The translations under genes and the position numbers were made by a program. Below are positions 1-32,075 of a stretch of 38,205 nt of DNA, one piece after another. Every line of letters starts with the position of its first letter. Position 1 is the first letter of the stretch. The notes below the pieces were generated by a model. It ran no database searches. It was not told the origin of the DNA and saw only the letters and a list, made by a program, of their open reading frames with translations. Source of the DNA: Acidimicrobiia bacterium (GTDB taxonomy: Bacteria; Actinomycetota; Acidimicrobiia; Spongiisociales; ZC4RG35); NCBI GenBank assembly GCA_009377735.1, contig WHTL01000001.1, positions 1 to 38,205 of the forward strand. The letters are read 5' to 3'.

Positions 1-729
1 GCGACTGCCACCGTCGTCAACAATGTGGAAACCCTTGCCAATGTCCCGGGAATCCTGACTCACGGTGCCGACTGGTTCCGAGAGGTCGGCACGGAGGACT
101 CACCGGGACCGATGTTGTTCACTGTCTCGGGCGATGTTAGAAATCCATCGGTCGCCGAGCTTCCCCTTGGCACACCGCTCTCGTTTCTGCTCTACGGGGT
201 GGTCGGAGGCCTGGAGGCTGGTCGACGCCCCAAGCTGGTCGTCTCCGGGGTATCCAATCGACCATTGACGGCGAGTGAGCTGGACACCCCGCTTTCCTTC
301 GAGGCGATGTCCGAGATCGGGAGCGGCCTCGGCTCCGGTGGCTTCATCGTGTACGACGACACCACATGTGTCGTTGAGGTGGCGACCGTCCTCTCGTGGT
401 TCCTCCAAGTGGGGTCTTGCGGGCAGTGTCCGCCCTGTAAGTTGGGTACCACCGCCTTCGCCGAGGGGTTCGAGAAGGTGATGGCTGGAACAGCCACCGA
501 GGATGACCTCGACGACATGTTGGGCTGGGTTCCCCGTGTCACCGATTCCAACCGGTGTGGTCTCGGAGCGGGACAGCAGAACCTGGCAGCCGGCATCTTC
601 AACACCTTCCCCAACGATGTCCGCGCCTGCTTCGAAGGCCGGTGCCCCGGCCACCGCGGCCTGGCCCCCCCACTTCCCACCGATCACGACCCCCTCAACC
701 GCCGCCCCATCCAGATCTTCGCGCCGTAG
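1..729 (+). CDS. NuoF-family flavoprotein subunit (NADH dehydrogenase / NAD-linked hydrogenase or formate dehydrogenase type), C-terminal part; 5' end lies outside the window
   Basis: Frame 1 is open from base 1 (ATVVNNVETLANVP...). 4Fe-4S cluster motif GSCGQCPPCKLG ... RCGLG. Stop TAG at 727-729. Confidence 0.8.
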   Translation, partial: ATATVVNNVETLANVPGILTHGADWFREVGTEDSPGPMLFTVSGDVRNPSVAELPLGTPLSFLLYGVVGGLEAGRRPKLVVSGVSNRPLTASELDTPLSFEAMSEIGSGLGSGGFIVYDDTTCVVEVATVLSWFLQVGSCGQCPPCKLGTTAFAEGFEKVMAGTATEDDLDDMLGWVPRVTDSNRCGLGAGQQNLAAGIFNTFPNDVRACFEGRCPGHRGLAPPLPTDHDPLNRRPIQIFAP

Positions 730-774
730 GTGTAATGCGGTAGATGTGGCGGACTCCTGGGTCAGCGAGAGTAC

Positions 775-1326
775 GGACCGGGTGTGCCGCAACGAGCGAC
801 GATCATAGGCAACGGACGTGGGCAGTCGTGCAGATGCCGTGGTGGTGGGTGGGAAACGTATGCCGCGGCGAGTGTTCCACCAGCAAGACCCGCGGCGACG
901 TAAGACCTCAGACTGCGCTCACCTAAGACCCGGCAATCACCCCGACACGACAGACAGGCACAGGTACGCGGATGTTGAGGTCGGACGACCGCAGCCACGC
1001 GAGAAGTGAGGTGGAGGCAGCCGTTGGGGGTCTGGGGGACGTCGCGGTCGCCGATGCCACGGACCGGGTGTGCCGAAAGAGGCGATGACTGCGGGCTCCC
1101 AGATACGGGTGGTCGTGCAGATGCTGTGGTGGCGGGTGGGAAGCCTCAGCCGAGATGAGCGGTTCACCGGCGAAACCCGCGACCAGATAAAACAACAAGC
1201 CGAAGTCACACCGAACCCGACAACCTCGCCCTTATGCGACAGACAGGCACCGCGTCGCGGAGGTGAGGTCGGACGGCCCGGCCACGCGGGGAGTGGGGTA
1301 GAGGCAGCCGTTGGGGGTCTGGGGGA
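775..1326. repeat. Tandem duplication of a ~286-nt noncoding unit (unit A 775-1039, 21-nt spacer, unit B 1061-1326)
   Basis: Both units share ordered identical blocks: ggaccgggtgtgccg, gtcgtgcagatgc[c/t]gtggtgg[t/c]gggtgggaa, gacagacaggcac, gaggtcggacg, ccacgcg, gaggcagccgttgggggtctggggga. The blocks are separated by indel-rich variable spacers. No consistent reading frame is conserved between the units. Confidence 0.85.
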
Positions 1327-1345
1327 GTCCCCCAGAAATAACAGC

Positions 1346-1394
1346 AACCCAGGGTTCCCACGGTCGCTCAGCGACGTCCCCGGCCCTAAGTTCG
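1346..1394. repeat. 49-nt intergenic element, copy S1 (AACCCNGGGTT palindrome, central hairpin, GCCCTAAGTTCG)
   Basis: Same length and same terminal modules as the copies at 1417, 18337 and 28401. Central gtcgc-tca-gcgac hairpin. Its 3' end forms a 7-bp inverted repeat (gttcgca/tgcgaac, 1390-1419) with the start of S2. Confidence 0.8.
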
Positions 1395-1416
1395 CAACCG
1401 GCCGTGCGTCGGTGCG

Positions 1417-1465
1417 AACCCAGGGTTCCCACGTCCGCTCAGCGACGTTCCCGGCCCTAAGTTCG
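1417..1465. repeat. 49-nt intergenic element, copy S2; overlaps the last codons and TAG stop of the amidohydrolase gene
   Basis: Near-identical to S1. The cta at 1457-1459 inside the gccctaagttcg module is the TAG stop of the minus-strand CDS 1457-2731. Confidence 0.8.
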
Positions 1466-2731
1466 GCGGTATCTTGTCTCGCCCGCCACCACGGTGGCGG
1501 AGCATCTCGATGCGCCCTGGGTGACCAATGACTCAAGAACCTGGTCGGGGACAGGGTCTACGTCGAAGACGGCCAGGTCTGCCCGTGCTCCAGCAACCAG
1601 CTCACCGACCGCACCGCGCGTCCCCATTGCCTCTGCTCCTCCGATGGTGGCGGCCCGAAGGAGACGGGGTGCCAGGTCCTCTCCTTGGTAGCCCTGATCC
1701 CGTGCCAGGTCGTAGAGCAGTGCCACGTCGGCCATGAGATCGAGGGAGGGGCTCGAGCCTAAAGAGTCCGTCCCCACGGCAATGGGGTTGCCCTCCTCAA
1801 GGAACGCCCGGATGGGTGGTGGGTCGATTCCAACACCGAGGTTGGAGCGGGGACAGAGCGCCGTCGTCGTGTTTCGTTCCCGAAGGATACGCCTCCCGTC
1901 CTTGCCCAGGTAGACGCCATGCGCAACATGGGTGGTAGGTCCGAGAAGCCCACACGACTCGGCGAACTCGGCGGCCCCCATCCCGGTTCCACCACGGCCG
2001 AGGACACCCCAGGGACGACCGACACGCATGGCGACCCTCTCGGCGAGGGCACCACGGCCATTCCTGTAGTAGTCGTCCTCGGTGTCCGACTCGGCGAGAT
2101 GGATGTGAAGCCTCCGACCCATGTCATTAGCCAGTCGTGCCAGATGTTTCAGTACCGGCTCGTCGAGACTGTATGGGGCGTGGGGTGAGATACCGACCGT
2201 GGAATCACCGGAGATCGGGGCCTCGGCCACGGTGCTTGCGAGTGTCTCCTCGACATGGCTCTTCCAGGCTTCCTCGTCGACGCCGATCACCTCCAGATAG
2301 GCGACCCCCGCTACCCCCATCTCGTCGAGAATGCCGAGGGCGGCGACGTCCGTAACGATGTCGGCGAAGCAGGTGGTGCCATTTCGAAGAGATGCATGAA
2401 CCCCATCTCGGGCCGATTGAGCCCAGTCGTCATTCCGACGCTCTTCATACTCCTCGACGAACCGGGCCGACCAGGTGACATAGTCGGGATGTCTGACCGA
2501 CCCGACCGATGAGAAGCTGGTGTACTGGAGATGAGTGTGGGCGTTCACTAACCCCGGCACCATCACCCCCTGCCACTCGCACTTTTCCGCATCCGGGTAG
2601 GAAGCAGTGAGCCTGTCTCTCTCACCCACGTCGATGATCCGCCCCTGACGGCTCACAACACCCCCATCCCGGATTGGTGGCGCCGACACCGGGACCACGG
2701 TGGGGGCGAGGTGGATGGTGGTGGTCACCAA
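1457..2731 (-). CDS. Metal-dependent amidohydrolase of the chlorohydrolase / MTA-SAH deaminase (MtaD/DadD-like) group
   Basis: 424-aa ORF with motifs VNAHTHL (HxH), HIHLAES, VAHGVYL, VGTDS. The start is non-ATG (TTG 2731 or GTG 2728). The GTG forms a GTGA overlap with the upstream stop. Confidence 0.8.
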   Translation of the reverse strand: MVTTTIHLAPTVVPVSAPPIRDGGVVSRQGRIIDVGERDRLTASYPDAEKCEWQGVMVPGLVNAHTHLQYTSFSSVGSVRHPDYVTWSARFVEEYEERRNDDWAQSARDGVHASLRNGTTCFADIVTDVAALGILDEMGVAGVAYLEVIGVDEEAWKSHVEETLASTVAEAPISGDSTVGISPHAPYSLDEPVLKHLARLANDMGRRLHIHLAESDTEDDYYRNGRGALAERVAMRVGRPWGVLGRGGTGMGAAEFAESCGLLGPTTHVAHGVYLGKDGRRILRERNTTTALCPRSNLGVGIDPPPIRAFLEEGNPIAVGTDSLGSSPSLDLMADVALLYDLARDQGYQGEDLAPRLLRAATIGGAEAMGTRGAVGELVAGARADLAVFDVDPVPDQVLESLVTQGASRCSATVVAGETRYRRT

Positions 2732-3927
2732 CTTCGGGTCGCCTCCGCCTGCTCCTGGCTGGGAATGTCGATAACGAGCCCTGATGCGGCGAGTTGCGAT
2801 GCCGCCACCTCGTCGTCGATCTCATCGGGTAGGAGGTGGACCCCGACGGGGAGGTCGTTTCCTGCGAGGTGATCGAGGGCACGCAATTGCAGGGCAAGCG
2901 ACAGGTCCATGATCTCGATGGGGTTGCCCTCGCCCGCCGTGGTGTTGGCACAGTAGCCATCGGCGACCACGAAGACCGTTGTGCCCCCGGGAGTCCGCCA
3001 AGCCCGGACATTCGGCCGGACCGTGTCTCCACCGGAGAGGGGCGGACCGATGGAGGGATCGAACTCGGGTGGGCCGGCACCACCCACCGCAATGACGGTT
3101 CCCTCACGCATCTTGGCGACGTGCTCAGCGGTGAGGGTGTGGGCGATACCGGTGGCCGTGATGACGAAGTCGGCCTGACCAATCGCGTCGGCCACGGGGG
3201 CCACTTCGAACCCGTCGTGGTGGGCGCGCAGGGCGGCAACGGGATCTATCTCGGTCACCGTGACCCGGCCCCCGAGACCACGGGCCGCTGCGGCGATTCC
3301 ACGGCCAACCTTTCCGTAACCAACCACAACCACCGACGCTCCCGACATCTGCATGTTGGTGGCGTCGAGAACAGCCATAACCACTGACTGCCCGGTGCCG
3401 TAGACGTTGTCGAAGAGCACCTTGCTGCGGGCGTCGTTGACGGCGATGCACGGCACCTCCAGCACGCCATTCTGTTCCATCACCCGAAGGGGCCGGACTC
3501 CGCTGGTGGTCTCCTCGGCGACACCTTTGAGATGCTTCAGGGCGTCGCGGCGGTCGCGGTGGAGCCGTCGCGTGATGGAGGCGCCGTCGTCGCAGAGGTA
3601 TTGATTCCCAACATCGATGAACCGGTCGCGAAGAAGATCGACCCGCACCCTGTCTGCGCCCGTCTCGGCAAATACCGCGATGCCTTCCTCGGTCAAGGCG
3701 TCCACTACCTCCGTCTTGGTGGAATGACCGGAGCCGAAAACCGACACCTCCGCTCCCAAAGATGCCACGGCCTCGGCTAGACATGCTGTCTTCGGTTCCA
3801 AGGTCAGGGCTATTCCCACCTTCGCCCCATCGAGGTTCCCTGTCTGCCTGACGGTGGCGGTGGCGGCATCCAAGGCCGGCATGAACCCGCGGGCGAAGTC
3901 GATCATCCCACGACCCTTCTCAGTCAT
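2725..3927 (-). CDS. Adenosylhomocysteinase-fold paralogue 2 (divergent; catalytic histidines replaced)
   Basis: AhcY motifs are present: DDG, AEETTSGV, NDARSKVLFDNVYGTGQS, GYGKVGRG, TEIDP. The histidine motifs read TLEPKTA (not HLExKTA), GGAGPPEFD (not GHxDxEID) and GNP (not GHP). ATG at 3927 lies inside the last codons of the upstream gene. The longer ORF to 4224 is a low-complexity extension overlapping that gene. Confidence 0.8.
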   Translation of the reverse strand: MTEKGRGMIDFARGFMPALDAATATVRQTGNLDGAKVGIALTLEPKTACLAEAVASLGAEVSVFGSGHSTKTEVVDALTEEGIAVFAETGADRVRVDLLRDRFIDVGNQYLCDDGASITRRLHRDRRDALKHLKGVAEETTSGVRPLRVMEQNGVLEVPCIAVNDARSKVLFDNVYGTGQSVVMAVLDATNMQMSGASVVVVGYGKVGRGIAAAARGLGGRVTVTEIDPVAALRAHHDGFEVAPVADAIGQADFVITATGIAHTLTAEHVAKMREGTVIAVGGAGPPEFDPSIGPPLSGGDTVRPNVRAWRTPGGTTVFVVADGYCANTTAGEGNPIEIMDLSLALQLRALDHLAGNDLPVGVHLLPDEIDDEVAASQLAASGLVIDIPSQEQAEATRSW

Positions 3928-5206
3928 CGTTCCGTCTTCTTCCAGTCGACTCGGCTTCGAGGATGGAGGTGAGGGTGTCACTCTGATCCTCCCGGGGCAG
4001 GTCGAGCCTGATGCCGCGGCTTGCCAGCTTGGCGGTGGCAATCTCGCGATCCAGGTGGGAGGGGAACTCGTGGACGCCGGGATCGAGGTCGCCGGTGACA
4101 AGGAGGTGACAGCCCAACGCCTGTACGGAAAAGGAAAGGTCCATGATCTCAACCGGGTGCCCCATACCACCGGCGATGTTGACCAAGGCTCCCTCGGAGA
4201 GGACGTAGACCGGTCTCGCGCCATCGATTAGATATCGGGAAACCCCCGGTCTCACCTCGGTGACATCGCTGGACCGCGTCGCCAGTGCGGGGGTGTCGAT
4301 CTCCAGATCATGATGACCGGCATTGGCGAGCACGACCGAATCACCGAGGACGTCTATGTGGTCATCGCTCACGGCTCGCAAACCTCCGGTGGCGGTGATC
4401 ACGATCTCGGCGCCATCAATTGCCGTCATCATGTCGGCGACGTCGTGGCCATCGCTCAGCGCCTCGAGTGCCCGAACGGGGTCGGTCTCCACCACGACCA
4501 CCCGGCCTCCCAGGGCGTGGGTGTAGTTGGCAATGCCCCGTCCCACCCAGCCGTACCCGATGACAGCGACCCGCTTGCCGGGCAGTCGGAGGTTGGTCAA
4601 CGAGAGGATGGCCTGAAGGGTGGATTGCCCCGTGCCATAGCGATTGTCGAACATGTGCTTGCAGGCGGCGTCGTTGGCAGCGATGGCCGGCATCGGTAGT
4701 TCGTCGCGACTCTCCAGGGCACGAAGACGGGCGACACCGGTGGTGGTCTCCTCCGACACCCCCTGCAGCTCGGCATACAGATTTGGCCGGTCGCGGGCTA
4801 TGCGAACGGTGAGCTCCGCCCCGTCGTCGATGATGTACTCCGGTCCACTCTCGGCGACTGCTACCAGGTCGACCTCCCACATCTCCTGGGTGGCGCCCCT
4901 GGTGGAATGCACCTCGATGCCCCGCTCCACGAGTGCGGCGGCGACCTCGTCACGGGTGGTCCACGGGTTGGATCCGGCCACGATCACCTCGGCTCCGGCG
5001 TCGGCCAGCACGGTCGCCAGAAAAGCCGTCTTCGCCTCGAGATGCACCACGACCGCGACGCGACGTCCCCGGAGAGACCCGTCCTCGGTGAGTCTTCGAC
5101 GGACGAACCCGTCCAGGACGGGTGATCTCTGTCGCGCCCACTCGATAGCCTGCTGACCTTCGGGTGCCAGGGAAGGATCGGCAATCCTCGACCGTTCGAA
5201 CGTCAT
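3920..5206 (-). CDS. ahcY: Adenosylhomocysteinase-like enzyme, paralogue 1 (archaeal-type; catalytic motifs intact)
   Basis: MTFERSRIADPSLAPEGQQAIEWA N-terminus. Motifs HLEAKTA, IIDDGAEL, SEETTTGV, NDAACKHMFDNRYGTGQS, GYGWVGRG, ETDP, NAGHHDLEID, GHPVEIMD. ATG 5206 overlaps the upstream TGA (ATGA). Confidence 0.8.
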   Translation of the reverse strand: MTFERSRIADPSLAPEGQQAIEWARQRSPVLDGFVRRRLTEDGSLRGRRVAVVVHLEAKTAFLATVLADAGAEVIVAGSNPWTTRDEVAAALVERGIEVHSTRGATQEMWEVDLVAVAESGPEYIIDDGAELTVRIARDRPNLYAELQGVSEETTTGVARLRALESRDELPMPAIAANDAACKHMFDNRYGTGQSTLQAILSLTNLRLPGKRVAVIGYGWVGRGIANYTHALGGRVVVVETDPVRALEALSDGHDVADMMTAIDGAEIVITATGGLRAVSDDHIDVLGDSVVLANAGHHDLEIDTPALATRSSDVTEVRPGVSRYLIDGARPVYVLSEGALVNIAGGMGHPVEIMDLSFSVQALGCHLLVTGDLDPGVHEFPSHLDREIATAKLASRGIRLDLPREDQSDTLTSILEAESTGRRRNDD

Positions 5207-5955
5207 AGACGACCAGCCTCGATGATCCGCTGTAGGAACTGCCTGGTGCGGGGGTTTGCGGGGTCGCTGAACAGTTGGGCTGGCTCGTTCTGCTCGAGGA
5301 TGCGACCATCGTGCAGGAAGCACACCCGATCGGCGACATCGCGGGCGAAGGCCATCTCGTGGGTCACGATCACCATCGTCATCCCCTTCTCCTTGAGATC
5401 GCGGATGACAGCGAGGACACCACCGATCAGCTCCGGATCGAGGGCGGCAGTCACCTCATCGAGGAGGAGGACGTCGGGATTTGTGGCCATGGCACGGACT
5501 ATGGCGACCCTTTGCTGTTGTCCACCCGAGAGCCGATCGGGATAAGACGAGGCGAATTCTCCCATCTCGAAGAGCTCGAGCAGCCGGTGGGCGTTGTCCT
5601 CGGCCGCCGCCTTGTCGACCCCGTGCACCCGGCGTGGTGCCAGAGTGATGTTGTCAAGGACCGTCATGTGGGGGAAGAGGTTGTAGGCCTGGAACACGAT
5701 CCCAATCCGCTTCCTCAGTTCGTTCTCGGTGAGGGATTCGTCGTAAAGGTCGACGCCGTCGAGGAGGATGCGGCCGCCCTCATAGTCCACAAGTCTGTTG
5801 AGACAGCGGAGCAGGGTGGACTTGCCCGAACCCGAGGCGCCGATGAGACAGACCACCTCGTGGGTGGCGACTTCGAGGTCGATCTCGTTCAGCACCATCT
5901 TGTCGCCGTAGAACTTGACGAGCCGTTCCACCTGGATCTTGGCGGGAGAATCCAT
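5203..5955 (-). CDS. Polar amino-acid ABC transporter ATP-binding protein (GlnQ/HisP type)
   Basis: Walker A GASGSGKST, signature LSGGQQQRV, Walker B LLLDE. Length of 250 aa is typical of the family. Confidence 0.9.
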   Translation of the reverse strand: MDSPAKIQVERLVKFYGDKMVLNEIDLEVATHEVVCLIGASGSGKSTLLRCLNRLVDYEGGRILLDGVDLYDESLTENELRKRIGIVFQAYNLFPHMTVLDNITLAPRRVHGVDKAAAEDNAHRLLELFEMGEFASSYPDRLSGGQQQRVAIVRAMATNPDVLLLDEVTAALDPELIGGVLAVIRDLKEKGMTMVIVTHEMAFARDVADRVCFLHDGRILEQNEPAQLFSDPANPRTRQFLQRIIEAGRL

Positions 5956-6800
5956 CAGACGGTCCTTTGCAGACGGCGCTCCTGATCACGACGGGCGTAC
6001 CAGTCGGTGAAGCGGGCGAGGGGGATGCTTGCAATCAGGAAGAGGATGGCGGCCGCGATGAGGCTGGAGTAGTTGAAGGTCCGCGCGGTGTAGATCTCAG
6101 CGGCACGCACCGCTTCCCTCACACCGAGGACGGACAGGAGTGCCACGTCCTTCTGAAGTGAGACGGCGCCGTTGAGGAGTGCCGGTGCCACGTTGCGGAT
6201 CGCCTGGGGGATGATGGCGAAACGGAGGGTCACCCACTGGTTGAGACCCAGAGCCCGTGCTGCGGCGCGCTGGCCGTCATGGACCGCTTCCATTCCCGCC
6301 CGGTAAACCTCGGCGCTGTAGGCGGAGTATCCGGCGATCAAGGCTACCGAACCCCAGAAGGTGGCACTCGTAGGTAGTCCCGGTAGCTGGAGGGCGGGAA
6401 CACCGAAGCCGAAAAGAAGGATCAGAAGCAGGGCGGGCACCCCCCGGAAGAGGTCGATGTAGGCGATCGTGGCGAGACGGAACGGGGCGGCGATAGGCCC
6501 GGTGAGAGAGCGGAGCACTGCCAGCAGGAGGGCGAACGCCAAGATGATGACCTCAGCGACTATCCAGATCCTCAGGTTCAGCCAGAACCCGGCGAGGACG
6601 GAGGGAAACGACTCCTGGATGGCCTCCCAGGAGAAGAATTGGTTTCGCACCGCCGGCCACTGCTCGGCCGAGCTGATCCACCACGCCGCCAGACCGAACA
6701 CGATCACGGTGCTCACCCCACTGATCAGGAGCGAGGTTCGTCGCTCCCGCGCCACCCGTCTGTGATGGGCCTCCGCTACCGCGGTGGAGTGCTCGGTCAC
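5955..6800 (-). CDS. Polar amino-acid ABC transporter permease (His/Glu/Gln/Arg/opine family)
   Basis: Multi-TM protein in an operon with family-3 SBP and GlnQ-like ATPase genes. I prefer the GTG at 6800 because it forms a GTGA overlap with the SBP stop. The ORF-track ATG at 6839 is the alternative start. Confidence 0.8.
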   Translation of the reverse strand: MTEHSTAVAEAHHRRVARERRTSLLISGVSTVIVFGLAAWWISSAEQWPAVRNQFFSWEAIQESFPSVLAGFWLNLRIWIVAEVIILAFALLLAVLRSLTGPIAAPFRLATIAYIDLFRGVPALLLILLFGFGVPALQLPGLPTSATFWGSVALIAGYSAYSAEVYRAGMEAVHDGQRAAARALGLNQWVTLRFAIIPQAIRNVAPALLNGAVSLQKDVALLSVLGVREAVRAAEIYTARTFNYSSLIAAAILFLIASIPLARFTDWYARRDQERRLQRTV

Positions 6801-7762
6801 CCCTCGATCAGCGGGATATCTCCGCCTTGCTCGAGCCACTCCTCCGCCATGGCGTCGATGGCGCCGCTCTCGTGGAGGGCTTCAAGGGCGGGGTTGACAC
6901 AATTCACGTACTCGTTGCCCTCGGTGAAGAGGAGACCCATGCCCTCCCCACTGTCACCTTGCTCTGGCAGAAGACCGGAGATGACCGCATTCTCCAACTC
7001 GACCGCGGTGAGGAAGTGGGCAGTCGGGAGACCCACGACGGTGGCGTCGATCTGTCCCGCATTTAGGGCGGCAACGGTGTCTGCCTGGGTGTTGTATACC
7101 GCGGTGTCGGTATCGCCGATCACCTGCTCGATATAGTCGAGATCGGTGGTCCCGATGGTGGCTCCCAGGTTGGCTTCCGCCAGCTCAGCGAAGGTAGTTG
7201 CCTGGGCGGCTGGGGTGTCGCTCAAAGCGATCACCGACTTCTGCACGTTGTAGTAGGGGATGGAGAAATCGACGACCTCGTCTCGCTCCTCGGTGATGGA
7301 GTACTGCTGCATGTTGAAGTCGTAGTCCTTCTCACCGGGGGCGATGGCCTGATCGAAACCGGTGCGGACCCAGCTGACGTCCTCGGCGGCGAAGCCCAAC
7401 TCCTCGGCGAGGGCATATGCCACGGCACTCTCGAATCCCTCACCGTTGGTGGGGTCATCGTCCATCATCCAAGGTGGGAACACCGGTTCCCCGGTGGCGA
7501 TGGTGAGCTTTCCGGGTTCGAAGAGGAGATCACTGTCGGTGGAGCAGGCGGCGTTTACGGTGGTCTCCGTCGCCGCCGCGGTGGTCTCGGCAGGAGCCGC
7601 GGTGGTCTCGCCCGCCGCGGTGGTCTCGGCAGGGGCAGTGGTGTCCGGCGCAGCAGCGGTGGTCTCGGTCCCGACACCCGTAGTGTCTGCGGGATCCGAT
7701 CCCCCACACGCGGCCAGAACCAGGGTGAGTGCCAGCGTCGAATACATCAGCTTGCGGTACAT
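6797..7762 (-). CDS. Amino-acid ABC transporter substrate-binding lipoprotein (SBP family 3) with a Thr/Ala-rich tether
   Basis: Signal peptide with lipobox LAAC. ETTAA/DTTAP-type repeat linker followed by an SBP_bac_3-like domain. SD-like AGGAGG lies about 7 nt upstream of the ATG. Confidence 0.85.
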   Translation of the reverse strand: MYRKLMYSTLALTLVLAACGGSDPADTTGVGTETTAAAPDTTAPAETTAAGETTAAPAETTAAATETTVNAACSTDSDLLFEPGKLTIATGEPVFPPWMMDDDPTNGEGFESAVAYALAEELGFAAEDVSWVRTGFDQAIAPGEKDYDFNMQQYSITEERDEVVDFSIPYYNVQKSVIALSDTPAAQATTFAELAEANLGATIGTTDLDYIEQVIGDTDTAVYNTQADTVAALNAGQIDATVVGLPTAHFLTAVELENAVISGLLPEQGDSGEGMGLLFTEGNEYVNCVNPALEALHESGAIDAMAEEWLEQGGDIPLIEG

Positions 7763-7892
7763 CGGGATCCTCCTGGAGAAATACGATTCGATTGCTTCAA
7801 CACTCCCAATGCGAGATCACTGGCGAACTGTCACCCACAGGGAAAGATCCAGTTTACGACGTGATGAAGATCAGGTGTTCACCCGTGCCGGG

Positions 7893-8780
7893 TCAGGTGA
7901 TCGATGCCTCGTAGATGCTCCCAATCGAGGTGTCCAGGGCAGAGTCGAACTCCTCGTCGCTCTGCTGTGCGGTAAGCCCTTCGGTGAGGGCCCTCGAGAA
8001 GCTGGCGATCATGCCTTGGTTACGGGTGAGGCGATCGGTAGCCTCCTCCCTGCTGTAGCCACCGGAAAGGGCGGCGACCCGAAGTACCTTCGGGTGGGAG
8101 ATGAGGTCGGCGTAGTGTCCGTCCACCTCGGGGAGAGTCAGTTTCAGCATCACTTGCTCGTCGTCGCCGATCGACTCCAGACCGGCCAGGATCGTGGACC
8201 TGAGGGAATCTTCCGCTGCCTCCTTTTCGGGGCTGTGGATGTCGATCTCCGGTTCCAGGATGGGCACCAGCCCCGCGGCGAGGATCTGACGACCGATCTC
8301 GAACTGCTGGTCGACCACGGCACCGAGACCGGTGGGGTTGGCCATCTTGATGACAGACCGCATCTTGGTGCCAAACACACCGTGCTCCAGCGCCTTGGCC
8401 AGGAGTGAGTCGAGACCCGGGATGGGCTTCATCACCTGTGCCCCATCGCTCTCATCGGCAAGGCCCTTGTCGACCTTCAGGAAGGGGACTACCTGCTTCT
8501 TCGTCCATAGATATTCGGCGGAGCCCAAACCCTCGATCTCGCGATCCATGGTGTTCTCGAAGAGGATCGCACCAACGACACGATCTCCTCCGAAGACGGG
8601 ACTGGTGATGATCCGTGTTCGCATCTCGTGGATCTTCTCGAACATCTCGTCGTCACCGGAGTACTCCGACTCCTCGACTCCGTATACCCGCAGCGCCTTG
8701 GGGGTGCTGCCGCCGCTTTGGTCGAGGGCGGCGATGAAGCCCTTGCCCTTGGCCATCTTGTCGAACTGCTGCTGGTTCAT
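7893..8780 (-). CDS. Class I fructose-bisphosphate aldolase
   Basis: MNQQQFDKMAKGKGFIAALDQSGGSTPKAL N-terminus is typical of Gram-positive class I FBA. SD AGGGAG lies upstream of ATG 8780. The track ORF extends to 8903 without support. Confidence 0.85.
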   Translation of the reverse strand: MNQQQFDKMAKGKGFIAALDQSGGSTPKALRVYGVEESEYSGDDEMFEKIHEMRTRIITSPVFGGDRVVGAILFENTMDREIEGLGSAEYLWTKKQVVPFLKVDKGLADESDGAQVMKPIPGLDSLLAKALEHGVFGTKMRSVIKMANPTGLGAVVDQQFEIGRQILAAGLVPILEPEIDIHSPEKEAAEDSLRSTILAGLESIGDDEQVMLKLTLPEVDGHYADLISHPKVLRVAALSGGYSREEATDRLTRNQGMIASFSRALTEGLTAQQSDEEFDSALDTSIGSIYEASIT

Positions 8781-8953
8781 GGGAGGTCTCCCTTGTGAAA
8801 AGTGTCTTGATCCCGACAATAGCCAACCGAGAAGCTGTCCCCCCACTGATGTAGGGGCCGGGGACGGTTCCTGCCGGCCGGAGGCCGGGAGGAAGGGGGG
8901 CACAACAGCCTCGATAGTCGCGACCCGATCGCATCGGGGAGTTGCCCGATCGT

Positions 8954-8970
8954 CAGCGCCTTCGGCGCTG
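8954..8970 (-). terminator. Hairpin downstream of livM (cagcgc-cttcg-gcgctg)
   Basis: Perfect 6-bp GC-rich stem 12 nt after the livM stop. There is no U-tract. Confidence 0.4.
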
Positions 8971-8981
8971 CCACTCCCCCC

Positions 8982-10007
8982 TCATTCGAGGGGAGAGAAT
9001 GTTTGACGGCGTTTGAACCAATCGTCCACGGTCGGGATCACGCCATTTGGGATCCAGAGGAAGAGGATGATGATGAGCAATCCATACGGCACCAGCCGCA
9101 GGTGACCCAGATCGAGGAGAGCCTCGTTGATGGCGGTAAAGGTGACCGATCCGAGGATGGGACCGAGTAGCGAGCCGATCCCACCGAACGCCAGCATCAC
9201 CAACACCACCACGTCCAGCTCGGCGAATTCGAAGGTGGTCGGACTGACCCGGCCCTGGGTGAACGCATAGATGGCGCCGGTCATCCCCAACATGGCCGCA
9301 CCGATCAGGGCTGCATAGACCCTATATCGGGCCACGTTGACACCAGCCAGCTCGGCGGCGATTTCGTCGTCCCGAAGGGCCCGGAATCCCCAGCCAATGT
9401 GTGACCGGCGCAACAAGCCATGCAAGAGGAGAAAAACGAGCACCATGGCAAGCATCAGGTAAAAGGCCGGCACCCGACTCCTGAGGAAGCTGTCACCACC
9501 CGAACTGATCAAGAACCCAGATTCTCCTCCGGTGAGATCGCCCAGCCCGAGCACGAGGTTCTCGAAGGCCAGTGCGAAGATGAGGGTGACTATCCCGGTG
9601 AAGATGACACCGAGCGAGCGTCGCACCGCGATCCAGCTGAGGAGCCCACCGGCGAGGCTCGAAGCCAACGTCGCGGCGAGGATGCTGACAACGATGGGTA
9701 GGCCCACAGTATCGCCGAGGATGGCAGCGCCGTAGCCACCGATCCCGGCGAGGGCGCCGACACATAGGAACAGTTGTCCCGTGCTTCCGAAGATCACGTT
9801 GAAACCGATGGCATAGCCGGCAAAGGCGAGTCCGAGAACGGACACCGTCATCATCACTCGGGAGTCACCGAGCCAGAGCGGCATCAGGGACAGTACCGCA
9901 CCGACCGCCAGTACCGGGACCACAAGGGCGGGTAGCGACCGGACTCCTCGTCGTTCGGTGCCACCAACGACAGATGTCCCGGTCGCCTCTGTGAATCTCT
10001 CCGTCAT
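8982..10007 (-). CDS. livM: Branched-chain amino-acid ABC transporter permease
   Basis: 341-aa polytopic membrane protein. Operon position is after livH, with an ATGA overlap. Confidence 0.8.
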   Translation of the reverse strand: MTERFTEATGTSVVGGTERRGVRSLPALVVPVLAVGAVLSLMPLWLGDSRVMMTVSVLGLAFAGYAIGFNVIFGSTGQLFLCVGALAGIGGYGAAILGDTVGLPIVVSILAATLASSLAGGLLSWIAVRRSLGVIFTGIVTLIFALAFENLVLGLGDLTGGESGFLISSGGDSFLRSRVPAFYLMLAMVLVFLLLHGLLRRSHIGWGFRALRDDEIAAELAGVNVARYRVYAALIGAAMLGMTGAIYAFTQGRVSPTTFEFAELDVVVLVMLAFGGIGSLLGPILGSVTFTAINEALLDLGHLRLVPYGLLIIILFLWIPNGVIPTVDDWFKRRQTFSPLE

Positions 10008-25045: not shown

Positions 25046-26155
25046 CTAGCCCCAGACGTCGGTAGCTACCTCGACGGTTCGCGCCAGCTTGCGCCACTGG
25101 TCGGACTCGGCCAGCTCGTTGCCGTCGGCAGTCGAGGAGAAACCGCATTGGTGACTCAGCCCACACTGGCCGATGTCGACGTACTTGGTTGCTTCCTCTA
25201 TGCGTCCCTTGAGCGCATCGGCATCCTCAACATCGGGCTTCTTGGAGCTCATCAGACCCAGGATCACCTGCTTGTCGTCCGGCATGAGACGCAATGGTGC
25301 GAAATCCCCGGACCGCTCGTTGTCGTATTCCAGGAAGAAGGCGTCGACTTCCATCTCGTTGAAGAGGATCTCGGCGACGGGCTCGTACCCGCCCTCGGAG
25401 ACCCAGGCACTGCGAAAATTGCCACGACACAGATGGATCGCGGCCACCATGTCATCGGGGCGATCCTTGATCGACTCGTTGACCAGACGGCAGTAAAGGC
25501 GGGTTAGCTCGTCGGGATCCTCCCCCTGCTCGGTTTTCTGCTGGCGGATGGATGGATCACAGAGGTACGCCAAATTGGTGTCATCCATCTGTAGATAGCG
25601 ACATCCCCGCTCCGCGAGATCGGCGATCTCTTCTCGATATGCAGCGGTGAGGTCGGCGAAGAAGTCGTCGAGATCGGGATAGACCTCCGATGAGATCGCC
25701 TCCCGACCACCCCGAAAGTGGAGCATGGAGGGGGCCGGGATCGATACCTTGGGAGTCTTGGTGACCACCGAGGCGAGAAAGTCGAAGCCGGGACCCTGGA
25801 TGGGTTGGCTGTGTCGGAGTGGCTCCTCGACCCTCATGGTCGGCGGACGGAATCCGACCTCGGTCCCGTCGTCCCTTCGGAAGTGCGCGAAGAAGTCGCC
25901 ATACGTCACATTGACGCCATCGAGCGCCTCAAGGAAGTCGATATGGAAGAAGAGCCGTCGAAACTCGCCGTCTGTGATCCCGGTGAGACCGACGGCCTCT
26001 TGGCGACCCACGACGTCTCGGATGTGGGTGTCCTCGATCTCGCGAAGCTCCTCCGCAGTGATCTCTCCACGGGCTCGGTGTTCCCGAGCCGCCATTATCT
26101 CCCGGGGTCTAAGGAAGCTCCCGACGTGCTCGGCTCGAAACGGCGGTGTTGGCAT
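25046..26155 (-). CDS. Core-only (single-domain) cobalamin-independent methionine synthase family protein (MetE C-terminal-domain-like)
   Basis: Motifs FRAEHVGSFLRP, IHLCRGN and LSHQCGF are Zn-ligand-type motifs. SD AAGGAGA lies 6 nt before ATG 26155. Confidence 0.8.
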   Translation of the reverse strand: MPTPPFRAEHVGSFLRPREIMAAREHRARGEITAEELREIEDTHIRDVVGRQEAVGLTGITDGEFRRLFFHIDFLEALDGVNVTYGDFFAHFRRDDGTEVGFRPPTMRVEEPLRHSQPIQGPGFDFLASVVTKTPKVSIPAPSMLHFRGGREAISSEVYPDLDDFFADLTAAYREEIADLAERGCRYLQMDDTNLAYLCDPSIRQQKTEQGEDPDELTRLYCRLVNESIKDRPDDMVAAIHLCRGNFRSAWVSEGGYEPVAEILFNEMEVDAFFLEYDNERSGDFAPLRLMPDDKQVILGLMSSKKPDVEDADALKGRIEEATKYVDIGQCGLSHQCGFSSTADGNELAESDQWRKLARTVEVATDVWG

Positions 26156-26280
26156 ACGTGGTCTCCTTTGGCGGTCTCGGTTCGGCCAGATCGTGGTCCT
26201 GCCCGACGATAGCCAACGACAACGTGTCGGGGCGGGCGGCAGCACAGGAGGAGACGAAGAGACACAGCCAGATCGAGATT

Positions 26281-26357
26281 GGTGGTCAGGGGCGGAATCG
26301 AACCGCCGACCCCCGGTTTTTCAGACCGGTGCTCTAGCCAACTGAGCTACCTGACCG
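26281..26357 (-). tRNA. tRNA-Phe (GAA), CCA encoded
   Basis: Manual cloverleaf: acceptor GGTCAGG/CCTGACC, anticodon arm CCGGT-CTGAAAA-ACCGG, T arm GGCGG-TTCGATT-CCGCC, 3' ACCA. Confidence 0.9.
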
Positions 26358-31889: not shown

Positions 31890-31913
31890 GTAATGCTCCC
31901 TGTTGTTGCGTAT

Positions 31914-32007: not shown

Positions 32008-32075
32008 GTGTGTCATTGATCTGAAACCGATGGTACCGCTTCGCGGCGATATCGCCGATTACGCTCGCCCCAGAC

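What the first reader, a model, noticed from the sequence alone, without database searches (positions are those of the whole stretch)
1457..7762. Operon coupling an amino-acid ABC importer to two SAH-hydrolase paralogues and an MTA/SAH-deaminase-like amidohydrolase
**What the sequence shows.** Six minus-strand genes are chained by stop/start overlaps: GTGA at 6797-6800, TGATG at 5953-5957, ATGA at 5203-5206, an ATG inside the last codons at 3920-3927, and GTGA at 2725-2728. They encode a family-3 amino-acid binding lipoprotein, a permease, an ATPase, AhcY-like 1, AhcY-like 2 and an HxH amidohydrolase.

**Established knowledge.** ahcY is normally a solitary housekeeping gene. DadD/MtaD/Tm0936-type amidohydrolases deaminate SAH and MTA. 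In the archaeal route an AhcY homologue hydrolyses the resulting S-inosyl-L-homocysteine.

**Inference.** Tying both enzyme types, with AhcY duplicated, to a dedicated amino-acid-type importer suggests uptake and breakdown of exogenous SAH or a related nucleoside-amino-acid conjugate. The products would be homocysteine (reduced sulfur) plus inosine. The same window also carries a core-only MetE-like methyltransferase (25046-26155) and a Cys/Met PLP enzyme (35779-36960). I do not recognise this operon layout as a described system.
Basis: partly seen in the sequence, partly recalled or inferred. Interest (0 to 1): 0.72.

Follow-up and report, generated by a model that had tools for sequence, protein, structure and literature searches.

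The report
Importer-linked nucleoside breakdown operon, odd AhcY pair
This six-gene operon, which recurs in hundreds of bacterial species, most likely imports a modified adenosine such as S-adenosylhomocysteine, deaminates it and cleaves it to inosine, and it relies on a large, unstudied family of adenosylhomocysteinase-like enzymes that lack the usual catalytic histidines.

Summary
Six minus-strand genes (1457-7762) are chained by the stated stop/start overlaps. They encode a family-3 binding lipoprotein, a permease, an ATPase, two AdoHcyase-fold proteins and an HxH amidohydrolase.

- **AhcY-1** carries the HxExK motif, which experiments tie to a preference for S-inosyl-homocysteine. It keeps every catalytic and homocysteine-contact residue.
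- **The amidohydrolase** is closest to deaminases of 5'-substituted adenosines (MTA, SAH, aminofutalosine), though by a small margin.
- **AhcY-2** is not a second SAH hydrolase. It belongs to a large, old clade that always lacks three conserved histidines but keeps the NAD site and the 3'-oxidation residues.

AhcY-2-like genes occur in 461 species representatives. The amidohydrolase lies within 7 kb in 72 of 84 loci examined. The module sits beside interchangeable importers (amino-acid ABC, sugar-type ABC, ECF, TRAP). LacI regulators, inosine-uridine nucleoside hydrolase and ribokinase are frequent neighbours. One copy is on a plasmid.

This points to import-coupled breakdown of a 5'-substituted adenosine through inosine. 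The exact substrate and the role of AhcY-2 are unresolved. I could not test whether AhcY-1 is this genome's only ahcY. I found no published description.

The parts
6797..7762 (-). Family-3 solute-binding lipoprotein. It has an LAAC lipobox, a Thr/Ala/Glu-rich linker and then the binding domain.
   Evidence: PF00497 at 74.6 bits. It falls below every NCBIfam equivalog cut-off; the best is Lys/Arg/Orn TIGR01096 at 88.6 against 256. The carboxylate-binding Arg in the 'SITEER' motif is invariant in 23 of 23 orthologues. The position of the alpha-ammonium Asp in canonical binders is Gly/Ala/Ser in 22 of 23.
5955..6800 (-). ABC permease of the polar amino-acid type. Its GTG start overlaps the binding-protein stop.
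   Evidence: PF00528. It passes TIGR01726, the HEQRo 3-TM domain model, at 46.3 against 42.2. The GTGA junction is verified.
5203..5955 (-). ABC ATPase of the GlnQ/EhuA/TcyN type.
   Evidence: PF00005 at 124 bits. It scores about equally against GlnQ, EhuA and TcyN (273-278 bits), all below their cut-offs. The TGATG junction is verified.
3920..5206 (-). AhcY-1: a short, archaeal/Thermotoga-type adenosylhomocysteinase homologue with the HxExK (hypoxanthine-type) motif and a full catalytic set.
   Evidence: PF05221 and PF00670. NF004005 scores 496.7 against a cut-off of 275, but TIGR00936 scores 421.8 against 497.6. The best PDB matches are the Pyrococcus furiosus (Pfu) SAHH/SIHH 7r37 at 1.5e-102, Thermotoga maritima (Tm) 3x2e, and 7r3a. 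Motifs are HLEAKT, SNPWTTRDE, DDGAE, GHHDLE, MGHPVE and KHMFDN.
2725..3927 (-). AhcY-2: a divergent AdoHcyase-fold protein that lacks three conserved histidines. Its ATG lies inside the last codons of AhcY-1.
   Evidence: PF00670 and PF05221. Motifs are TLEPKT (His to Thr), GSGHSTKTE, DDGAS, GAGPPE (no His-Phe gate), EGNPIE (His to Asn) and KVLFDN. The NAD motif GYGKVGRG and residues E138, T140, T141, K169, D173 and N174 are invariant across the family.
1457..2728 (-). Metal-dependent amidohydrolase with complete deaminase catalytic machinery. It resembles deaminases of 5'-substituted adenosines.
   Evidence: PF01979 at 123.5 bits. It is below all NCBIfam cut-offs. A family profile gives its best full-length match to DR_0824 (2imr, 147 bits), and also matches 4dyk/4gbd. 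The AlphaFold model has pLDDT 95.3. In Foldseek, 4gbd has the best E-value (5e-31) and 7lkk/7lkj the best TM-score (0.85/0.87).
7763..7892 (-). Leader / intergenic region upstream of the binding-protein gene, carrying the ribosome-binding site. The promoter was not identified.
   Evidence: AGGAGG lies 7 nt upstream of the ATG. There is no sigma-70-like promoter or terminator match. There is no Rfam match even at E<=1. Orthologous leaders share no element beyond the SD sequence.

Best explanation
The operon is an import-coupled catabolic or salvage module for an extracellular 5'-substituted adenosine. For this window's version the most likely substrate is S-adenosyl-L-homocysteine (SAH).

**Proposed steps**
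1. The lipoprotein binding protein, permease and ATPase import the compound.
2. The amidohydrolase deaminates the adenine ring to hypoxanthine (SAH to S-inosyl-L-homocysteine, SIH).
3. AhcY-1, with tightly bound NAD+, oxidises the 3'-OH, eliminates the 5'-thioether and adds water. The products are inosine and homocysteine.
4. Inosine is split to hypoxanthine and ribose by nucleoside hydrolase. That enzyme is encoded in many sister loci but not in this window. Homocysteine enters methionine and cysteine metabolism.

**AhcY-2**
AhcY-2 still appears to bind NAD and a hypoxanthine nucleoside and can probably perform the 3'-oxidation. It lacks the histidines that protonate the leaving group, activate water and gate the homocysteine channel. 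It therefore either partners AhcY-1 in a hetero-oligomer or processes a different 5'-substituent, for example the methylthio group of deaminated MTA, or a sulfonium.

**What is shown and what is inferred**
- Shown: gene order, motifs, conservation, transporter swapping and neighbour genes.
- Inferred: every catalytic step, the identity of the substrate and the role of AhcY-2.

My confidence in the general scheme (5'-substituted adenosine, then deamination, then AhcY-type chemistry, then inosine) is about 0.7. My confidence that SAH is the substrate here is about 0.4.
For: **AhcY-1 looks like an S-inosyl-homocysteine hydrolase**
- It has HxExK (HLEAK), the motif that experimentally marks SIH-preferring enzymes (PMC10978960).
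- It keeps the equivalents of the Pyrococcus furiosus (Pfu) residues His55, Glu57, Lys59, Ser79, Asn80, Asp128, Glu153, Lys183, Asp187, His298 and His350. These contact SIH in structure 7R38.

**The amidohydrolase looks like a deaminase of 5'-substituted adenosines**
- The HxH, HxHxxE, H and D machinery is invariant.
- The nearest profile and structure matches are MTA, MTA/SAH and aminofutalosine deaminases.

**Linkage**
- AhcY-2-like genes occur in 461 species representatives.
- The amidohydrolase lies within 7 kb in 72 of 84 loci.

**The transporter class changes but a transporter is nearly always present**
- Family-3 amino-acid ABC (type A), SBP_bac_1 sugar-type ABC (type B), ECF (type C and L027) and TRAP (L073).
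- A plasmid copy carries LacI, AhcY-1, AhcY-2, binding protein, two permeases, amidohydrolase, ATPase and nucleoside hydrolase.

**Neighbours fit nucleoside catabolism**
- LacI orthologues (54-95% identity) in 24 loci, IU-nucleoside hydrolase in 10, and ribokinase in Kribbella.
- A Vibrio plasmid has an analogous set built from non-orthologous parts: nucleoside hydrolase, AhcY-like (HIEPK), Add deaminase, ribokinase, DeoR and NupC.

**The substrate probably carries a carboxylate**
- The carboxylate-binding Arg is invariant in the type-A binding protein.
- One locus uses a TRAP system and has a MetE-like, homocysteine-methylating-type gene next to the AhcY pair.

**AhcY-1 and AhcY-2 probably work together**
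- The overlapping stop/start is conserved.
- Natural single-chain fusions exist: P0121, L051 and L052.
Against: - No enzyme, transporter or regulator of this module has been assayed, so the substrate is inferred.
- The type-A binding protein lacks the Asp that binds the alpha-ammonium group in ordinary amino-acid binders. That is unexpected for a ligand with a free homocysteine amino group.
- Sugar-type ABC, ECF and NupC importers in sister loci fit MTA-like or other uncharged nucleosides better than SAH.
- ECF-linked loci carry only the His-less AhcY-2 type. AhcY-2 must therefore work alone there. By the canonical mechanism it should be a poor hydrolase.
- Two fused proteins (L051, L052) and L016 also lack the catalytic His in the AhcY-1 part.
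- The amidohydrolase is below every NCBIfam equivalog cut-off. Base deaminases and chlorohydrolases score only slightly worse in structure space.
- Five loci with enough flanking sequence have the AhcY pair but no amidohydrolase.
- No homocysteine-using gene is a conserved neighbour.
Confidence: 0.5

Rival explanations
1. Same pathway logic but a different substrate. The module imports a 5'-substituted or sugar-modified adenosine other than SAH, such as 5'-methylthioadenosine, S-adenosylmethionine or a rarer nucleoside. AhcY-2 is then the key new enzyme. It could be an NAD-dependent lyase or hydrolase acting on the deaminated nucleoside: methylthioinosine to inosine plus methanethiol, sulfonium elimination releasing methionine, or an AgmF-like dehydration or isomerisation. 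AhcY-1 would be an optional helper, for example hydrating a 4',5'-didehydro product.
For: - AhcY-2-like plus amidohydrolase is the most conserved core, and it occurs without AhcY-1 in 23 ECF-linked loci.
- The same LacI orthologue serves type B and type C loci, which implies one effector.
- Sugar-type ABC, ECF and NupC importers suit uncharged nucleosides.
- AhcY-2 has lost exactly the residues that contact the homocysteine moiety and the sulfur (His55, Asn80 and the His-Phe gate). It keeps the hypoxanthine, ribose and NAD contacts.
- The best structural match of the amidohydrolase is an MTA deaminase bound to methylthio-coformycin.
- AgmF shows that AhcY homologues can have non-SAH chemistry (PMC8599513).
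- Ribokinase neighbours require that a free 5'-OH is regenerated.
Against: - AhcY-1 keeps all homocysteine contacts.
- The window's importer is of the amino-acid type with a conserved carboxylate-binding Arg. A TRAP system, which handles carboxylate substrates, replaces it in L073.
- AgmF needs both histidines that AhcY-2 lacks, so that precedent does not transfer directly.
- No methanethiol-handling gene is a conserved neighbour.
Confidence: 0.28
2. Housekeeping methyl-cycle variant. In this Acidimicrobiia genome the amidohydrolase and AhcY-1 are simply the cell's own SAH-disposal route (SAH to SIH to inosine plus homocysteine), as in Methanocaldococcus and Thermotoga. The neighbouring amino-acid importer takes up an ordinary amino acid or a sulfur amino acid.
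For: - The HxExK type and a DadD/MtaD-like deaminase are exactly the known archaeal and Thermotoga pairing (PMC10978960).
- AhcY-1-type genes (62-66% identity, same HLEAKT and GHHD motifs) occur without AhcY-2 or the amidohydrolase, some in housekeeping-like contexts: L088 and L093.
- No second ahcY is present in the 38-kb window, and the rest of the genome could not be inspected.
Against: - The triad is translationally coupled to an importer in at least 20 species, and stays next to an importer when the transporter family changes.
- It is under LacI or TetR-type regulators, sits on a plasmid in Roseateles, and moved between phyla as a unit.
- It occurs in Mycobacterium, Nocardia, Microbacteriaceae, Rhizobiales and Rhodobacterales. 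From established knowledge, those groups carry a canonical long-type ahcY.
- Only 461 of 185,579 species representatives carry it. That is too patchy for a lineage's core enzyme.
- This reading does not explain AhcY-2.
Confidence: 0.15
3. Chance or purely genomic co-location. The transporter and the three enzymes are functionally unrelated genes that happen to be adjacent.
For: No direct functional data link them. No shared regulatory element was found in the leader.
Against: - Overlapping stop/start codons occur at all five junctions.
- The order is conserved with unrelated flanks in many genomes.
- The enzymes are repeatedly re-associated with other importer families.
Confidence: 0.02

Closest known systems
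Archaeal/Thermotoga SAH route: DadD/MtaD (Tm0936) SAH deaminase plus S-inosyl-L-homocysteine hydrolase (EC 3.13.1.9)
   Same: A cog0402-type deaminase is paired with a short AhcY homologue carrying the HxExK hypoxanthine motif. AhcY-1 matches the Pyrococcus furiosus (Pfu), Thermotoga maritima (Tm) and 7r3a enzymes at E of 1e-95 to 1e-102 and keeps all SIH contacts.
   Different: - The known route is an intracellular housekeeping pathway with unlinked genes. Here the genes form one operon with an importer.
- A second, His-less AhcY paralogue is always attached.
- The deaminase is nearer to DR_0824 and PA3170 than to DadD.
- The gate is His-His rather than His-Phe.
- The carriers are mesophilic Actinomycetota, Proteobacteria, Chloroflexia and Spirochaetales.
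Pseudomonas aeruginosa MTA deaminase (PA3170; PDB 4gbd/4dyk) with methylthioinosine phosphorylase; Plasmodium ADA/PNP handling of MTA
   Same: A 5'-thioether adenosine is deaminated first and then processed at the inosine level. PA3170 is the best sequence and Foldseek match of the window's amidohydrolase.
   Different: Those pathways cleave the glycosidic bond by phosphorolysis and keep the methylthio-ribose. Here an AhcY-type enzyme is predicted to remove the 5'-substituent, after which a nucleoside hydrolase acts. Identity to PA3170 is only about 25%.
Aminofutalosine deaminases (DR_0824 2imr, Nis_0429, H. pylori AFLDA 7lkj; NCBIfam NF006269)
   Same: These give the only full-length single-stretch profile match (2imr, 147 bits), with shared NAHTHL, SPHxP, HxHxAExxxE, CPRSN and GTDS motifs. 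They also give the highest TM-scores (0.83-0.87). JGI labels many orthologues 'aminodeoxyfutalosine deaminase'.
   Different: The window protein scores 126 against a cut-off of 320 for NF006269. There is no menaquinone (mqn) gene context. Futalosine has a C-C bond at C5' that AhcY chemistry cannot eliminate.
AgmF, the SAH-hydrolase-like dehydratase of angustmycin biosynthesis (PMC8599513)
   Same: It is an AdoHcyase-fold enzyme with tightly bound NAD+ that does not act on SAH and performs other 5'/6' chemistry on a nucleoside.
   Different: AgmF keeps His56 and His299 and needs both. AhcY-2 lacks both. AgmF sits in a biosynthetic cluster, not beside importers and a deaminase.
Eukaryotic AHCYL1/IRBIT-type AhcY paralogues (from general knowledge; PDB 3mtg and 3gvp appear as hits)
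   Same: They are AhcY-fold paralogues that are not ordinary SAH hydrolases and are reported to associate with AHCY. This is a precedent for a non-canonical partner subunit.
   Different: They are unrelated in lineage and have an N-terminal regulatory extension. AhcY-2 keeps most catalytic residues and also occurs without any AhcY-1 partner.
Bacterial nucleoside catabolic operons (LacI or DeoR regulator, nucleoside importer, IU-nucleoside hydrolase Rih/IUNH, ribokinase)
   Same: Many sister loci, and the Vibrio plasmid analogue, contain exactly these parts.
   Different: Described operons lack AhcY-fold enzymes and a cog0402 deaminase. The window's own copy has neither the hydrolase nor a regulator next to it.

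Membership tests
S-inosyl-L-homocysteine hydrolase / archaeal-type SAH hydrolase (applied to AhcY-1) | AdoHcyase substrate and NAD domains | tested here: met
   PF05221 at 138 bits and PF00670 at 122.6 bits. Full-length alignment to 7r37 at 1.5e-102.
S-inosyl-L-homocysteine hydrolase / archaeal-type SAH hydrolase (applied to AhcY-1) | HxExK nucleobase motif, which marks SIH preference | tested here: met
   HLEAK aligns to the Pyrococcus furiosus (Pfu) HLEMK. The meaning of the motif comes from PMC10978960. It is conserved in 119 of the 120 best homologues.
S-inosyl-L-homocysteine hydrolase / archaeal-type SAH hydrolase (applied to AhcY-1) | Catalytic and SIH-contact residues (Pyrococcus furiosus numbering: His55, Ser79, Asn80, Asp128, Glu153, Thr154, Lys183, Asp187, His298, Phe299, His350) | tested here: met
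   All are present except Phe299, which is His (GHHD gate).
S-inosyl-L-homocysteine hydrolase / archaeal-type SAH hydrolase (applied to AhcY-1) | Curated equivalog score | tested here: inconclusive
   It passes NF004005 (496.7 against 275). It fails TIGR00936 (421.8 against 497.6) and NF004010 (478.9 against 512). A Rhizobiales orthologue passes NF004010 at 618.
S-inosyl-L-homocysteine hydrolase / archaeal-type SAH hydrolase (applied to AhcY-1) | Hydrolysis of SIH (or SAH) in vitro | not testable with these tools
   An enzyme assay is required.
Canonical adenosylhomocysteinase (applied to AhcY-2) | AdoHcyase fold and NAD-binding motif | tested here: met
   PF00670 at 114 bits and PF05221 at 95.5 bits. 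GYGKVGRG, E226 and N328 are invariant.
Canonical adenosylhomocysteinase (applied to AhcY-2) | Catalytic His of the HxT/ExE/K motif (human His55) | tested here: not met
   The window has Thr. Across 84 loci the position is T, V, M, P or A and never His.
Canonical adenosylhomocysteinase (applied to AhcY-2) | His-Phe molecular gate (human His301-Phe302) | tested here: not met
   The segment is GGAGPPE, AGGGxFE or AGGVxxE, with no His.
Canonical adenosylhomocysteinase (applied to AhcY-2) | His contacting purine N7 (human His353) | tested here: not met
   The position is an invariant Asn (EGNP).
Canonical adenosylhomocysteinase (applied to AhcY-2) | 3'-oxidation and C4'-deprotonation residues (human Asp131, Glu156, Lys186, Asp190, Asn191) | tested here: met
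   D114, E138, K169, D173 and N174 are invariant in alignment A1.
MTA/SAH/5'-deoxyadenosine/aminofutalosine deaminases of the amidohydrolase superfamily (applied to the amidohydrolase) | Metal ligands and catalytic HxxE, His and Asp | tested here: met
   H64 (nearly invariant) and H66, H208, H210, E213, H270 and D321 (invariant) across 20 orthologues.
MTA/SAH/5'-deoxyadenosine/aminofutalosine deaminases of the amidohydrolase superfamily (applied to the amidohydrolase) | Passing a curated equivalog model (MtaD NF012037, DadD NF005557, AFL deaminase family NF006269) | tested here: not met
   Scores are 81.6 against 779, 101.5 against 522 and 126.1 against 320.
MTA/SAH/5'-deoxyadenosine/aminofutalosine deaminases of the amidohydrolase superfamily (applied to the amidohydrolase) | Closer to nucleoside deaminases than to base deaminases or chlorohydrolases | tested here: inconclusive
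   The top profile hits are 4dyk/4gbd and 2imr. Top Foldseek hits are 4gbd, 4dzh, 4f0r and 7lkk, with TM up to 0.87. AtzA, TrzN, Vcz and GuaD follow at TM 0.76-0.82.
MTA/SAH/5'-deoxyadenosine/aminofutalosine deaminases of the amidohydrolase superfamily (applied to the amidohydrolase) | Residues binding the homocysteine carboxylate (Tm0936 Arg136 and Arg148, from memory of Hermann et al. 2007) | not tested
   The N-terminal half aligns too poorly to Tm0936, and the model coordinates cannot be inspected.
Polar amino-acid ABC importer (family-3 binding protein type) | PF00497 binding protein, HEQRo-type permease and GlnQ-type ATPase | tested here: met
Polar amino-acid ABC importer (family-3 binding protein type) | Arg binding the ligand's alpha-carboxylate | tested here: met
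   The Arg in SITEER aligns to the Arg of AncQR, AncCDT and 3vv5, and is invariant in 23 of 23 orthologues.
Polar amino-acid ABC importer (family-3 binding protein type) | Asp binding the ligand's alpha-ammonium group | tested here: not met
   It aligns to Gly in the window and to Gly/Ala/Ser in 22 of 23 type-A orthologues.

The most novel reading that the evidence does not exclude
The His-less AhcY-2 clade is a previously unrecognised family of NAD-dependent nucleoside-processing enzymes. It is currently annotated everywhere as 'adenosylhomocysteinase'. Together with a dedicated deaminase and interchangeable importers, it would define a widespread, horizontally mobile pathway by which soil, plant-associated and marine bacteria scavenge extracellular SAM-derived nucleosides (SAH, MTA, possibly SAM) as sources of sulfur, nitrogen and ribose. 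Its chemistry would differ from canonical SAH hydrolysis, for example 5'-elimination without histidine catalysis, or an obligate AhcY-1/AhcY-2 heteromer.
Probability: 0.35. Interest if true: 0.8.

Novelty: new variant of a known kind. Interest (0 to 1): 0.66.

Why it matters
- **Nutrient scavenging.** SAH, MTA and related by-products of SAM are made by every cell and released into soil and seawater. How bacteria reclaim them from outside is poorly known. This module would be a dedicated uptake-and-breakdown route yielding homocysteine or another thiol, hypoxanthine and ribose.
- **Reach of the deaminate-first route.** The logic known from a few archaea and Thermotoga would extend to many mesophilic bacteria.
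- **Annotation error.** A large enzyme clade (AhcY-2-like genes in 461 species representatives) is labelled 'adenosylhomocysteinase' although it lacks three residues considered essential for that reaction. Metabolic reconstructions that count these genes as a methyl-cycle step are probably wrong.
- **Testable.** Cultured carriers exist, including Euzebya, Microbacterium, Leifsonia, Rathayibacter, Nonomuraea, Mycobacterium aquaticum and Taklimakanibacter.

Tried and rejected
- **Riboswitch or other RNA leader.** Rfam at gathering thresholds found no match in or next to the operon, either in the window or in seven sister loci. The window's only hits lie elsewhere: a TPP riboswitch and two tRNAs. 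The operon leader gave nothing even at E<=1. The 650-1500 gap gave one weak Guanidine-II hit (19 bits against 32), which I treat as chance.
- **Promoter and terminator scans of 700-9100.** No hits.
- **Alignment of orthologous leaders.** Nothing is conserved beyond the SD sequence. One of the five coordinate sets was a guess.
- **Another ahcY in the same genome.** The tools give only about 10 kb around a named protein.
- **MetE-like and Cys/Met PLP genes as part of the system.** They are real but distant, and they are not neighbours in other loci. The MetE-like gene next to the pair in L073 is only 21% identical to the window's.
- **GNAT acetyltransferase.** It recurs beside nine type-A loci but is absent from the window, and its role is unknown.
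- **My GC3-based gene caller.** It failed in low-GC loci (L048, L073), so I used the ORF listing there.
- **Literature.** Five searches found no description of these operons or of bacterial His-less AhcY paralogues. One search term was rejected for syntax.
- **AhcY-2 as a recent degenerate duplicate of AhcY-1.** Rejected. The two are 41% identical and sit in separate deep clades. The AhcY-2 substitutions are uniform across phyla.

Full report

Yes. The ORF listing finds the six minus-strand ORFs.
- GTGA at 6797-6800
- TGATG at 5953-5957
- ATGA at 5203-5206
- ATGACTGA at 3920-3927
- GTGA at 2725-2728

All six genes show coding periodicity (GC3 0.71-0.80). ORFs in the adjacent 730-1456 gap do not. 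Pfam confirms PF00497, PF00528, PF00005, PF05221 plus PF00670 (twice) and PF01979. The binding protein has a lipobox (LVLAAC) and a strong ribosome-binding site. The window is a 38,205-bp contig of an Acidimicrobiia MAG.

**2. The two AhcY-like proteins are different things.**

They are 41% identical.

*AhcY-1 (3920-5206).* It is a short, archaeal/Thermotoga-type enzyme. Its best PDB matches are the Pyrococcus furiosus (Pfu) enzyme 7r37 (1.5e-102), the Thermotoga maritima (Tm) enzyme 3x2e, and the S-inosyl-L-homocysteine hydrolase entry 7r3a. Koeppl et al. 2024 (PMC10978960) showed that an HxTxE/Q nucleobase motif marks SAH-preferring enzymes and HxExK marks enzymes preferring S-inosyl-homocysteine (SIH). 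AhcY-1 reads HLEAK. It also keeps every residue that their Table S5 lists as contacting SIH in the Pfu structure: His55, Glu57, Lys59, Ser79, Asn80, Asp128, Glu153, Thr154, Lys183, Asp187, His298 and His350. The only change is in the gate, which is His-His instead of His-Phe. That change is a constant mark of this clade.

*AhcY-2 (2725-3927).* It keeps the following features:
- the NAD fingerprint
- the ExK hypoxanthine contacts
- the equivalents of the human-numbered residues Asp131, Glu156, Lys186, Asp190 and Asn191

It has lost or replaced these:

| Canonical residue | State in AhcY-2 |
|---|---|
| Catalytic His | Thr in this window |
| Asn contacting the homocysteine carboxylate | Gly or Ser |
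| His-Phe gate | GAGPPE |
| His contacting N7 | Asn |

Across 84 loci these states never revert. In a neighbour-joining tree of 105 family members, the AhcY-2 type forms a large, diverse monophyletic clade (more than 36 clusters at 50% identity). It is separate from the tight AhcY-1 clade and from the Pfu/Tm group. AhcY-2 is therefore an old, selectively maintained protein with an altered 5' pocket. It is not a decaying duplicate and not a canonical SAH hydrolase.

**3. The amidohydrolase.**

The catalytic set of deaminases is complete and invariant: HxH, SPHxP, HxHxAE, AHG, CPRSN and GTDS. It passes no NCBIfam equivalog cut-off.

A profile of 20 orthologues gives its best scores to the P. aeruginosa MTA deaminase (4dyk/4gbd). 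Its only full-length single-stretch match is to DR_0824, of the aminofutalosine-deaminase family. A confident AlphaFold model (pLDDT 95.3) matches the following in Foldseek:
- 4gbd, with the best E-value
- Xanthomonas and Chromobacterium adenosine and MTA/SAH deaminase homologues
- H. pylori and Nitratiruptor aminofutalosine deaminases, with the best TM-scores (0.83-0.87)

Atrazine and triazine hydrolases and guanine or isocytosine deaminases are only slightly worse. So it leans to deaminases of 5'-substituted adenosines, but the call is not firm.

**4. Conservation and context.**

*Window-type six-gene order.* It recurs with unrelated flanks in Acidimicrobiia, Nitriliruptoraceae and Euzebya.

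*Wider distribution.* A scan of one genome per species with an AhcY-2 alignment found 461 loci, of which I fetched 79. In 84 loci overall, the amidohydrolase lies within 7 kb in 72. About half of the exceptions are cut by contig ends.

*Architectures.*
- **Type A.** Family-3 binding protein, permease, ATPase, AhcY-1, AhcY-2, amidohydrolase. This is the window's type.
- **Type B.** AhcY-1, AhcY-2, SBP_bac_1 binding protein, two permeases, amidohydrolase and often an ATPase. It occurs in Chloroflexia, some Acidimicrobiaceae, Rhizobiales, Pseudomonadales, Rhodobacterales, Nocardioidaceae, Kribbella and Microbacteriaceae.
- **Type C.** An AhcY-2-like gene alone, then a fused EcfA1A2, an ECF S component, EcfT and the amidohydrolase. 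It occurs in Nonomuraea, Streptosporangium, Rathayibacter, Mycobacterium aquaticum, Mycolicibacterium brisbanense and Nocardia fusca.
- **Variants.** A Spirochaetales locus joins AhcY-1, AhcY-2 and the amidohydrolase to an ECF system. A Granulosicoccaceae locus has a TRAP transporter, a MetE-like core protein and an alpha/beta hydrolase before the AhcY pair.

*Recurrent neighbours.* These are a LacI regulator (24 loci, 54-95% identical across phyla and across types B and C), IU-nucleoside hydrolase (10 loci), ribokinase (Kribbella) and a GNAT (9 type-A loci).

*Plasmid copies.* A PGAP-annotated Roseateles plasmid shows the full set. Its order is LacI, two 'adenosylhomocysteinases', binding protein, two permeases, amidohydrolase, ATPase and nucleoside hydrolase. 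A Vibrio nigripulchritudo plasmid carries an analogous set built from non-orthologous parts. These are a nucleoside hydrolase, an AhcY-like protein (HIEPK), an Add-type adenosine deaminase, ribokinase, DeoR and NupC.

**5. What it most likely does.**

Four things stay constant:
- an importer
- a deaminase
- an AhcY-fold enzyme with a hypoxanthine-type pocket
- often a nucleoside hydrolase and ribokinase

This describes import of a modified adenosine, deamination, removal of whatever blocks ordinary nucleoside catabolism, and then inosine split to hypoxanthine plus ribose. Ribokinase needs a free 5'-OH. AhcY chemistry (3'-oxidation, C4' deprotonation, elimination at C5', water addition) produces exactly that.

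For the window's version, SAH is the best candidate for three reasons:
- AhcY-1 keeps all homocysteine contacts.
- The importer is of the amino-acid type, with an invariant carboxylate-binding Arg.
- A carboxylate-dependent TRAP system and a homocysteine-methylating-type gene appear in one variant.

Several points weigh against SAH, or at least complicate it:
- The binding protein lacks the alpha-ammonium Asp.
- Sugar-type, ECF and NupC importers elsewhere suit uncharged nucleosides such as MTA.
- Type C works with the His-less enzyme alone.

I therefore put about 0.7 on the general scheme and about 0.4 on SAH as the substrate here.

**6. AhcY-2.**

Two readings remain open.
- **Partner subunit.** The AhcY-1 stop and AhcY-2 start overlap in every inspected pair. 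Three natural single-chain fusions exist.
- **Independent enzyme for another 5'-substituent.** AhcY-2 stands alone in 23 ECF-linked loci. It has lost precisely the sulfur and homocysteine contacts while keeping the oxidation machinery. It might act on methylthioinosine or a sulfonium, or release a 4',5'-didehydro product that AhcY-1 hydrates.

AgmF shows that the fold can do non-SAH chemistry. However, AgmF needs the two histidines that AhcY-2 lacks.

**7. Housekeeping or accessory?**

I could not check the source genome for another ahcY. AhcY-1-type genes with the same motifs also occur without AhcY-2 or the amidohydrolase:
- alone (L088, L093)
- beside Bmp-type nucleoside ABC transporters (L089, L092)
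- followed by a PNP/MTAP-family gene (L091)

So in Acidimicrobiia this clade may include the native housekeeping enzyme.

Several observations make an accessory, substrate-induced role much more likely for the operon as such:
- The module occurs on a plasmid.
- It is under LacI control.
- It occurs in lineages known to have a canonical ahcY.
- It has moved between phyla.
- It is present in only 461 of 185,579 species representatives.

**8. Known or new?**

The deaminate-then-SIH-hydrolase logic is known from Methanocaldococcus and Thermotoga. MTA deamination is known from Pseudomonas and Plasmodium. I found nothing in the searchable literature on four points:
- the operon itself
- its coupling to importers
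- the obligatory His-less AhcY paralogue
- its breadth of distribution

Databases call both proteins 'adenosylhomocysteinase'. I rate it a new variant of a known kind. The AhcY-2 clade is the most novel element.

**9. Limits.**

Everything functional is inference from sequence, predicted structure and gene context. Gene calls in the fetched loci come from my own scripts and are approximate at gene starts. The neighbour-joining tree is unbootstrapped. Statements about canonical ahcY in other lineages, and about Tm0936 residues, rest on general knowledge rather than on tests made here.

Noticed in passing
window 31912-32019 (-), with genes 30738-31952 (-) and 29181-30716 (-): A TPP riboswitch (73.4 bits against a gathering score of 54.3) sits directly upstream of an SBP_bac_6/8 binding-protein gene and a double-length ABC permease. 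This is presumably a thiamine or thiamine-precursor importer.
   Followed up: partly
window 26283-26356 (-) and 26397-26471 (-): Two tRNA genes lie just upstream of the MetE-like gene.
   Followed up: no
window 730-1456: A gap of about 727 bp lies between a NuoF-like C-terminal ORF (25-729) and the end of the amidohydrolase gene. It has no coding periodicity, and Rfam gives only one weak sub-threshold hit (Guanidine-II, 19.1 against 32 bits, E = 0.24), which I treat as chance. That is unusually long for this compact genome.
   Followed up: partly
window 25046-26245 (-) and 35779-36966 (-): A core-only MetE-like protein (PF01717, C-terminal part only) and a Cys/Met-metabolism PLP enzyme (PF01053, 430 bits) are real genes. 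They are not conserved neighbours of the operon in other genomes.
   Followed up: partly
L073 4003-11173 (Granulosicoccaceae MAG): A variant locus carries TRAP DctM and DctP, a MetE-like core protein, an alpha/beta hydrolase, AhcY-1 and AhcY-2, with a divergent LacI and no amidohydrolase nearby. It is the only locus where a homocysteine-methylating-type gene touches the pair.
   Followed up: partly
L087 7085-14311 (Vibrio nigripulchritudo plasmid pTUMSAT-V.nig2-1): An analogous module built from different parts: nucleoside hydrolase, a third kind of AhcY-like protein (HIEPKT, GHL gate, GDP, DNG, LEN), an Add-type adenosine deaminase, ribokinase, DeoR and NupC. It lies next to tal and tkt.
   Followed up: partly
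L051 8675-11200 and L052 8597-11200; protein P0121: These are natural single-chain AhcY-1/AhcY-2 fusions of 800-867 aa. In L051 and L052 the AhcY-1 half also lacks the catalytic His (QLEAKT, GHQD).
   Followed up: partly
proteins P0125 and P0137 (about 825 aa): Other tandem double-AhcY fusions that are much more divergent. Both halves have unusual motifs, for example HLTRQT/HITKES, and lack the gate. Their genomic context is unknown.
   Followed up: no
L003 8025-8662 and L004 6771-7414: A VapB/VapC (PIN) toxin-antitoxin pair is inserted between the ATPase and AhcY-1 genes of the operon in two genomes.
   Followed up: no
L001, L003, L004, L014, L017, L019-L022: A GNAT acetyltransferase (PF00583 plus FR47) sits immediately upstream or downstream of the type-A operon in nine genomes but not in the window. 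An Eis-like GNAT follows the amidohydrolase in Mycobacterium aquaticum.
   Followed up: partly
L089, L092 and L091: AhcY-1-type genes without AhcY-2 lie beside Bmp/PnrA-type nucleoside ABC transporters (L089, L092) or are followed by a PNP_UDP_1-family gene (L091). Even the unpaired members of this clade therefore tend to be linked to nucleoside uptake or cleavage.
   Followed up: no
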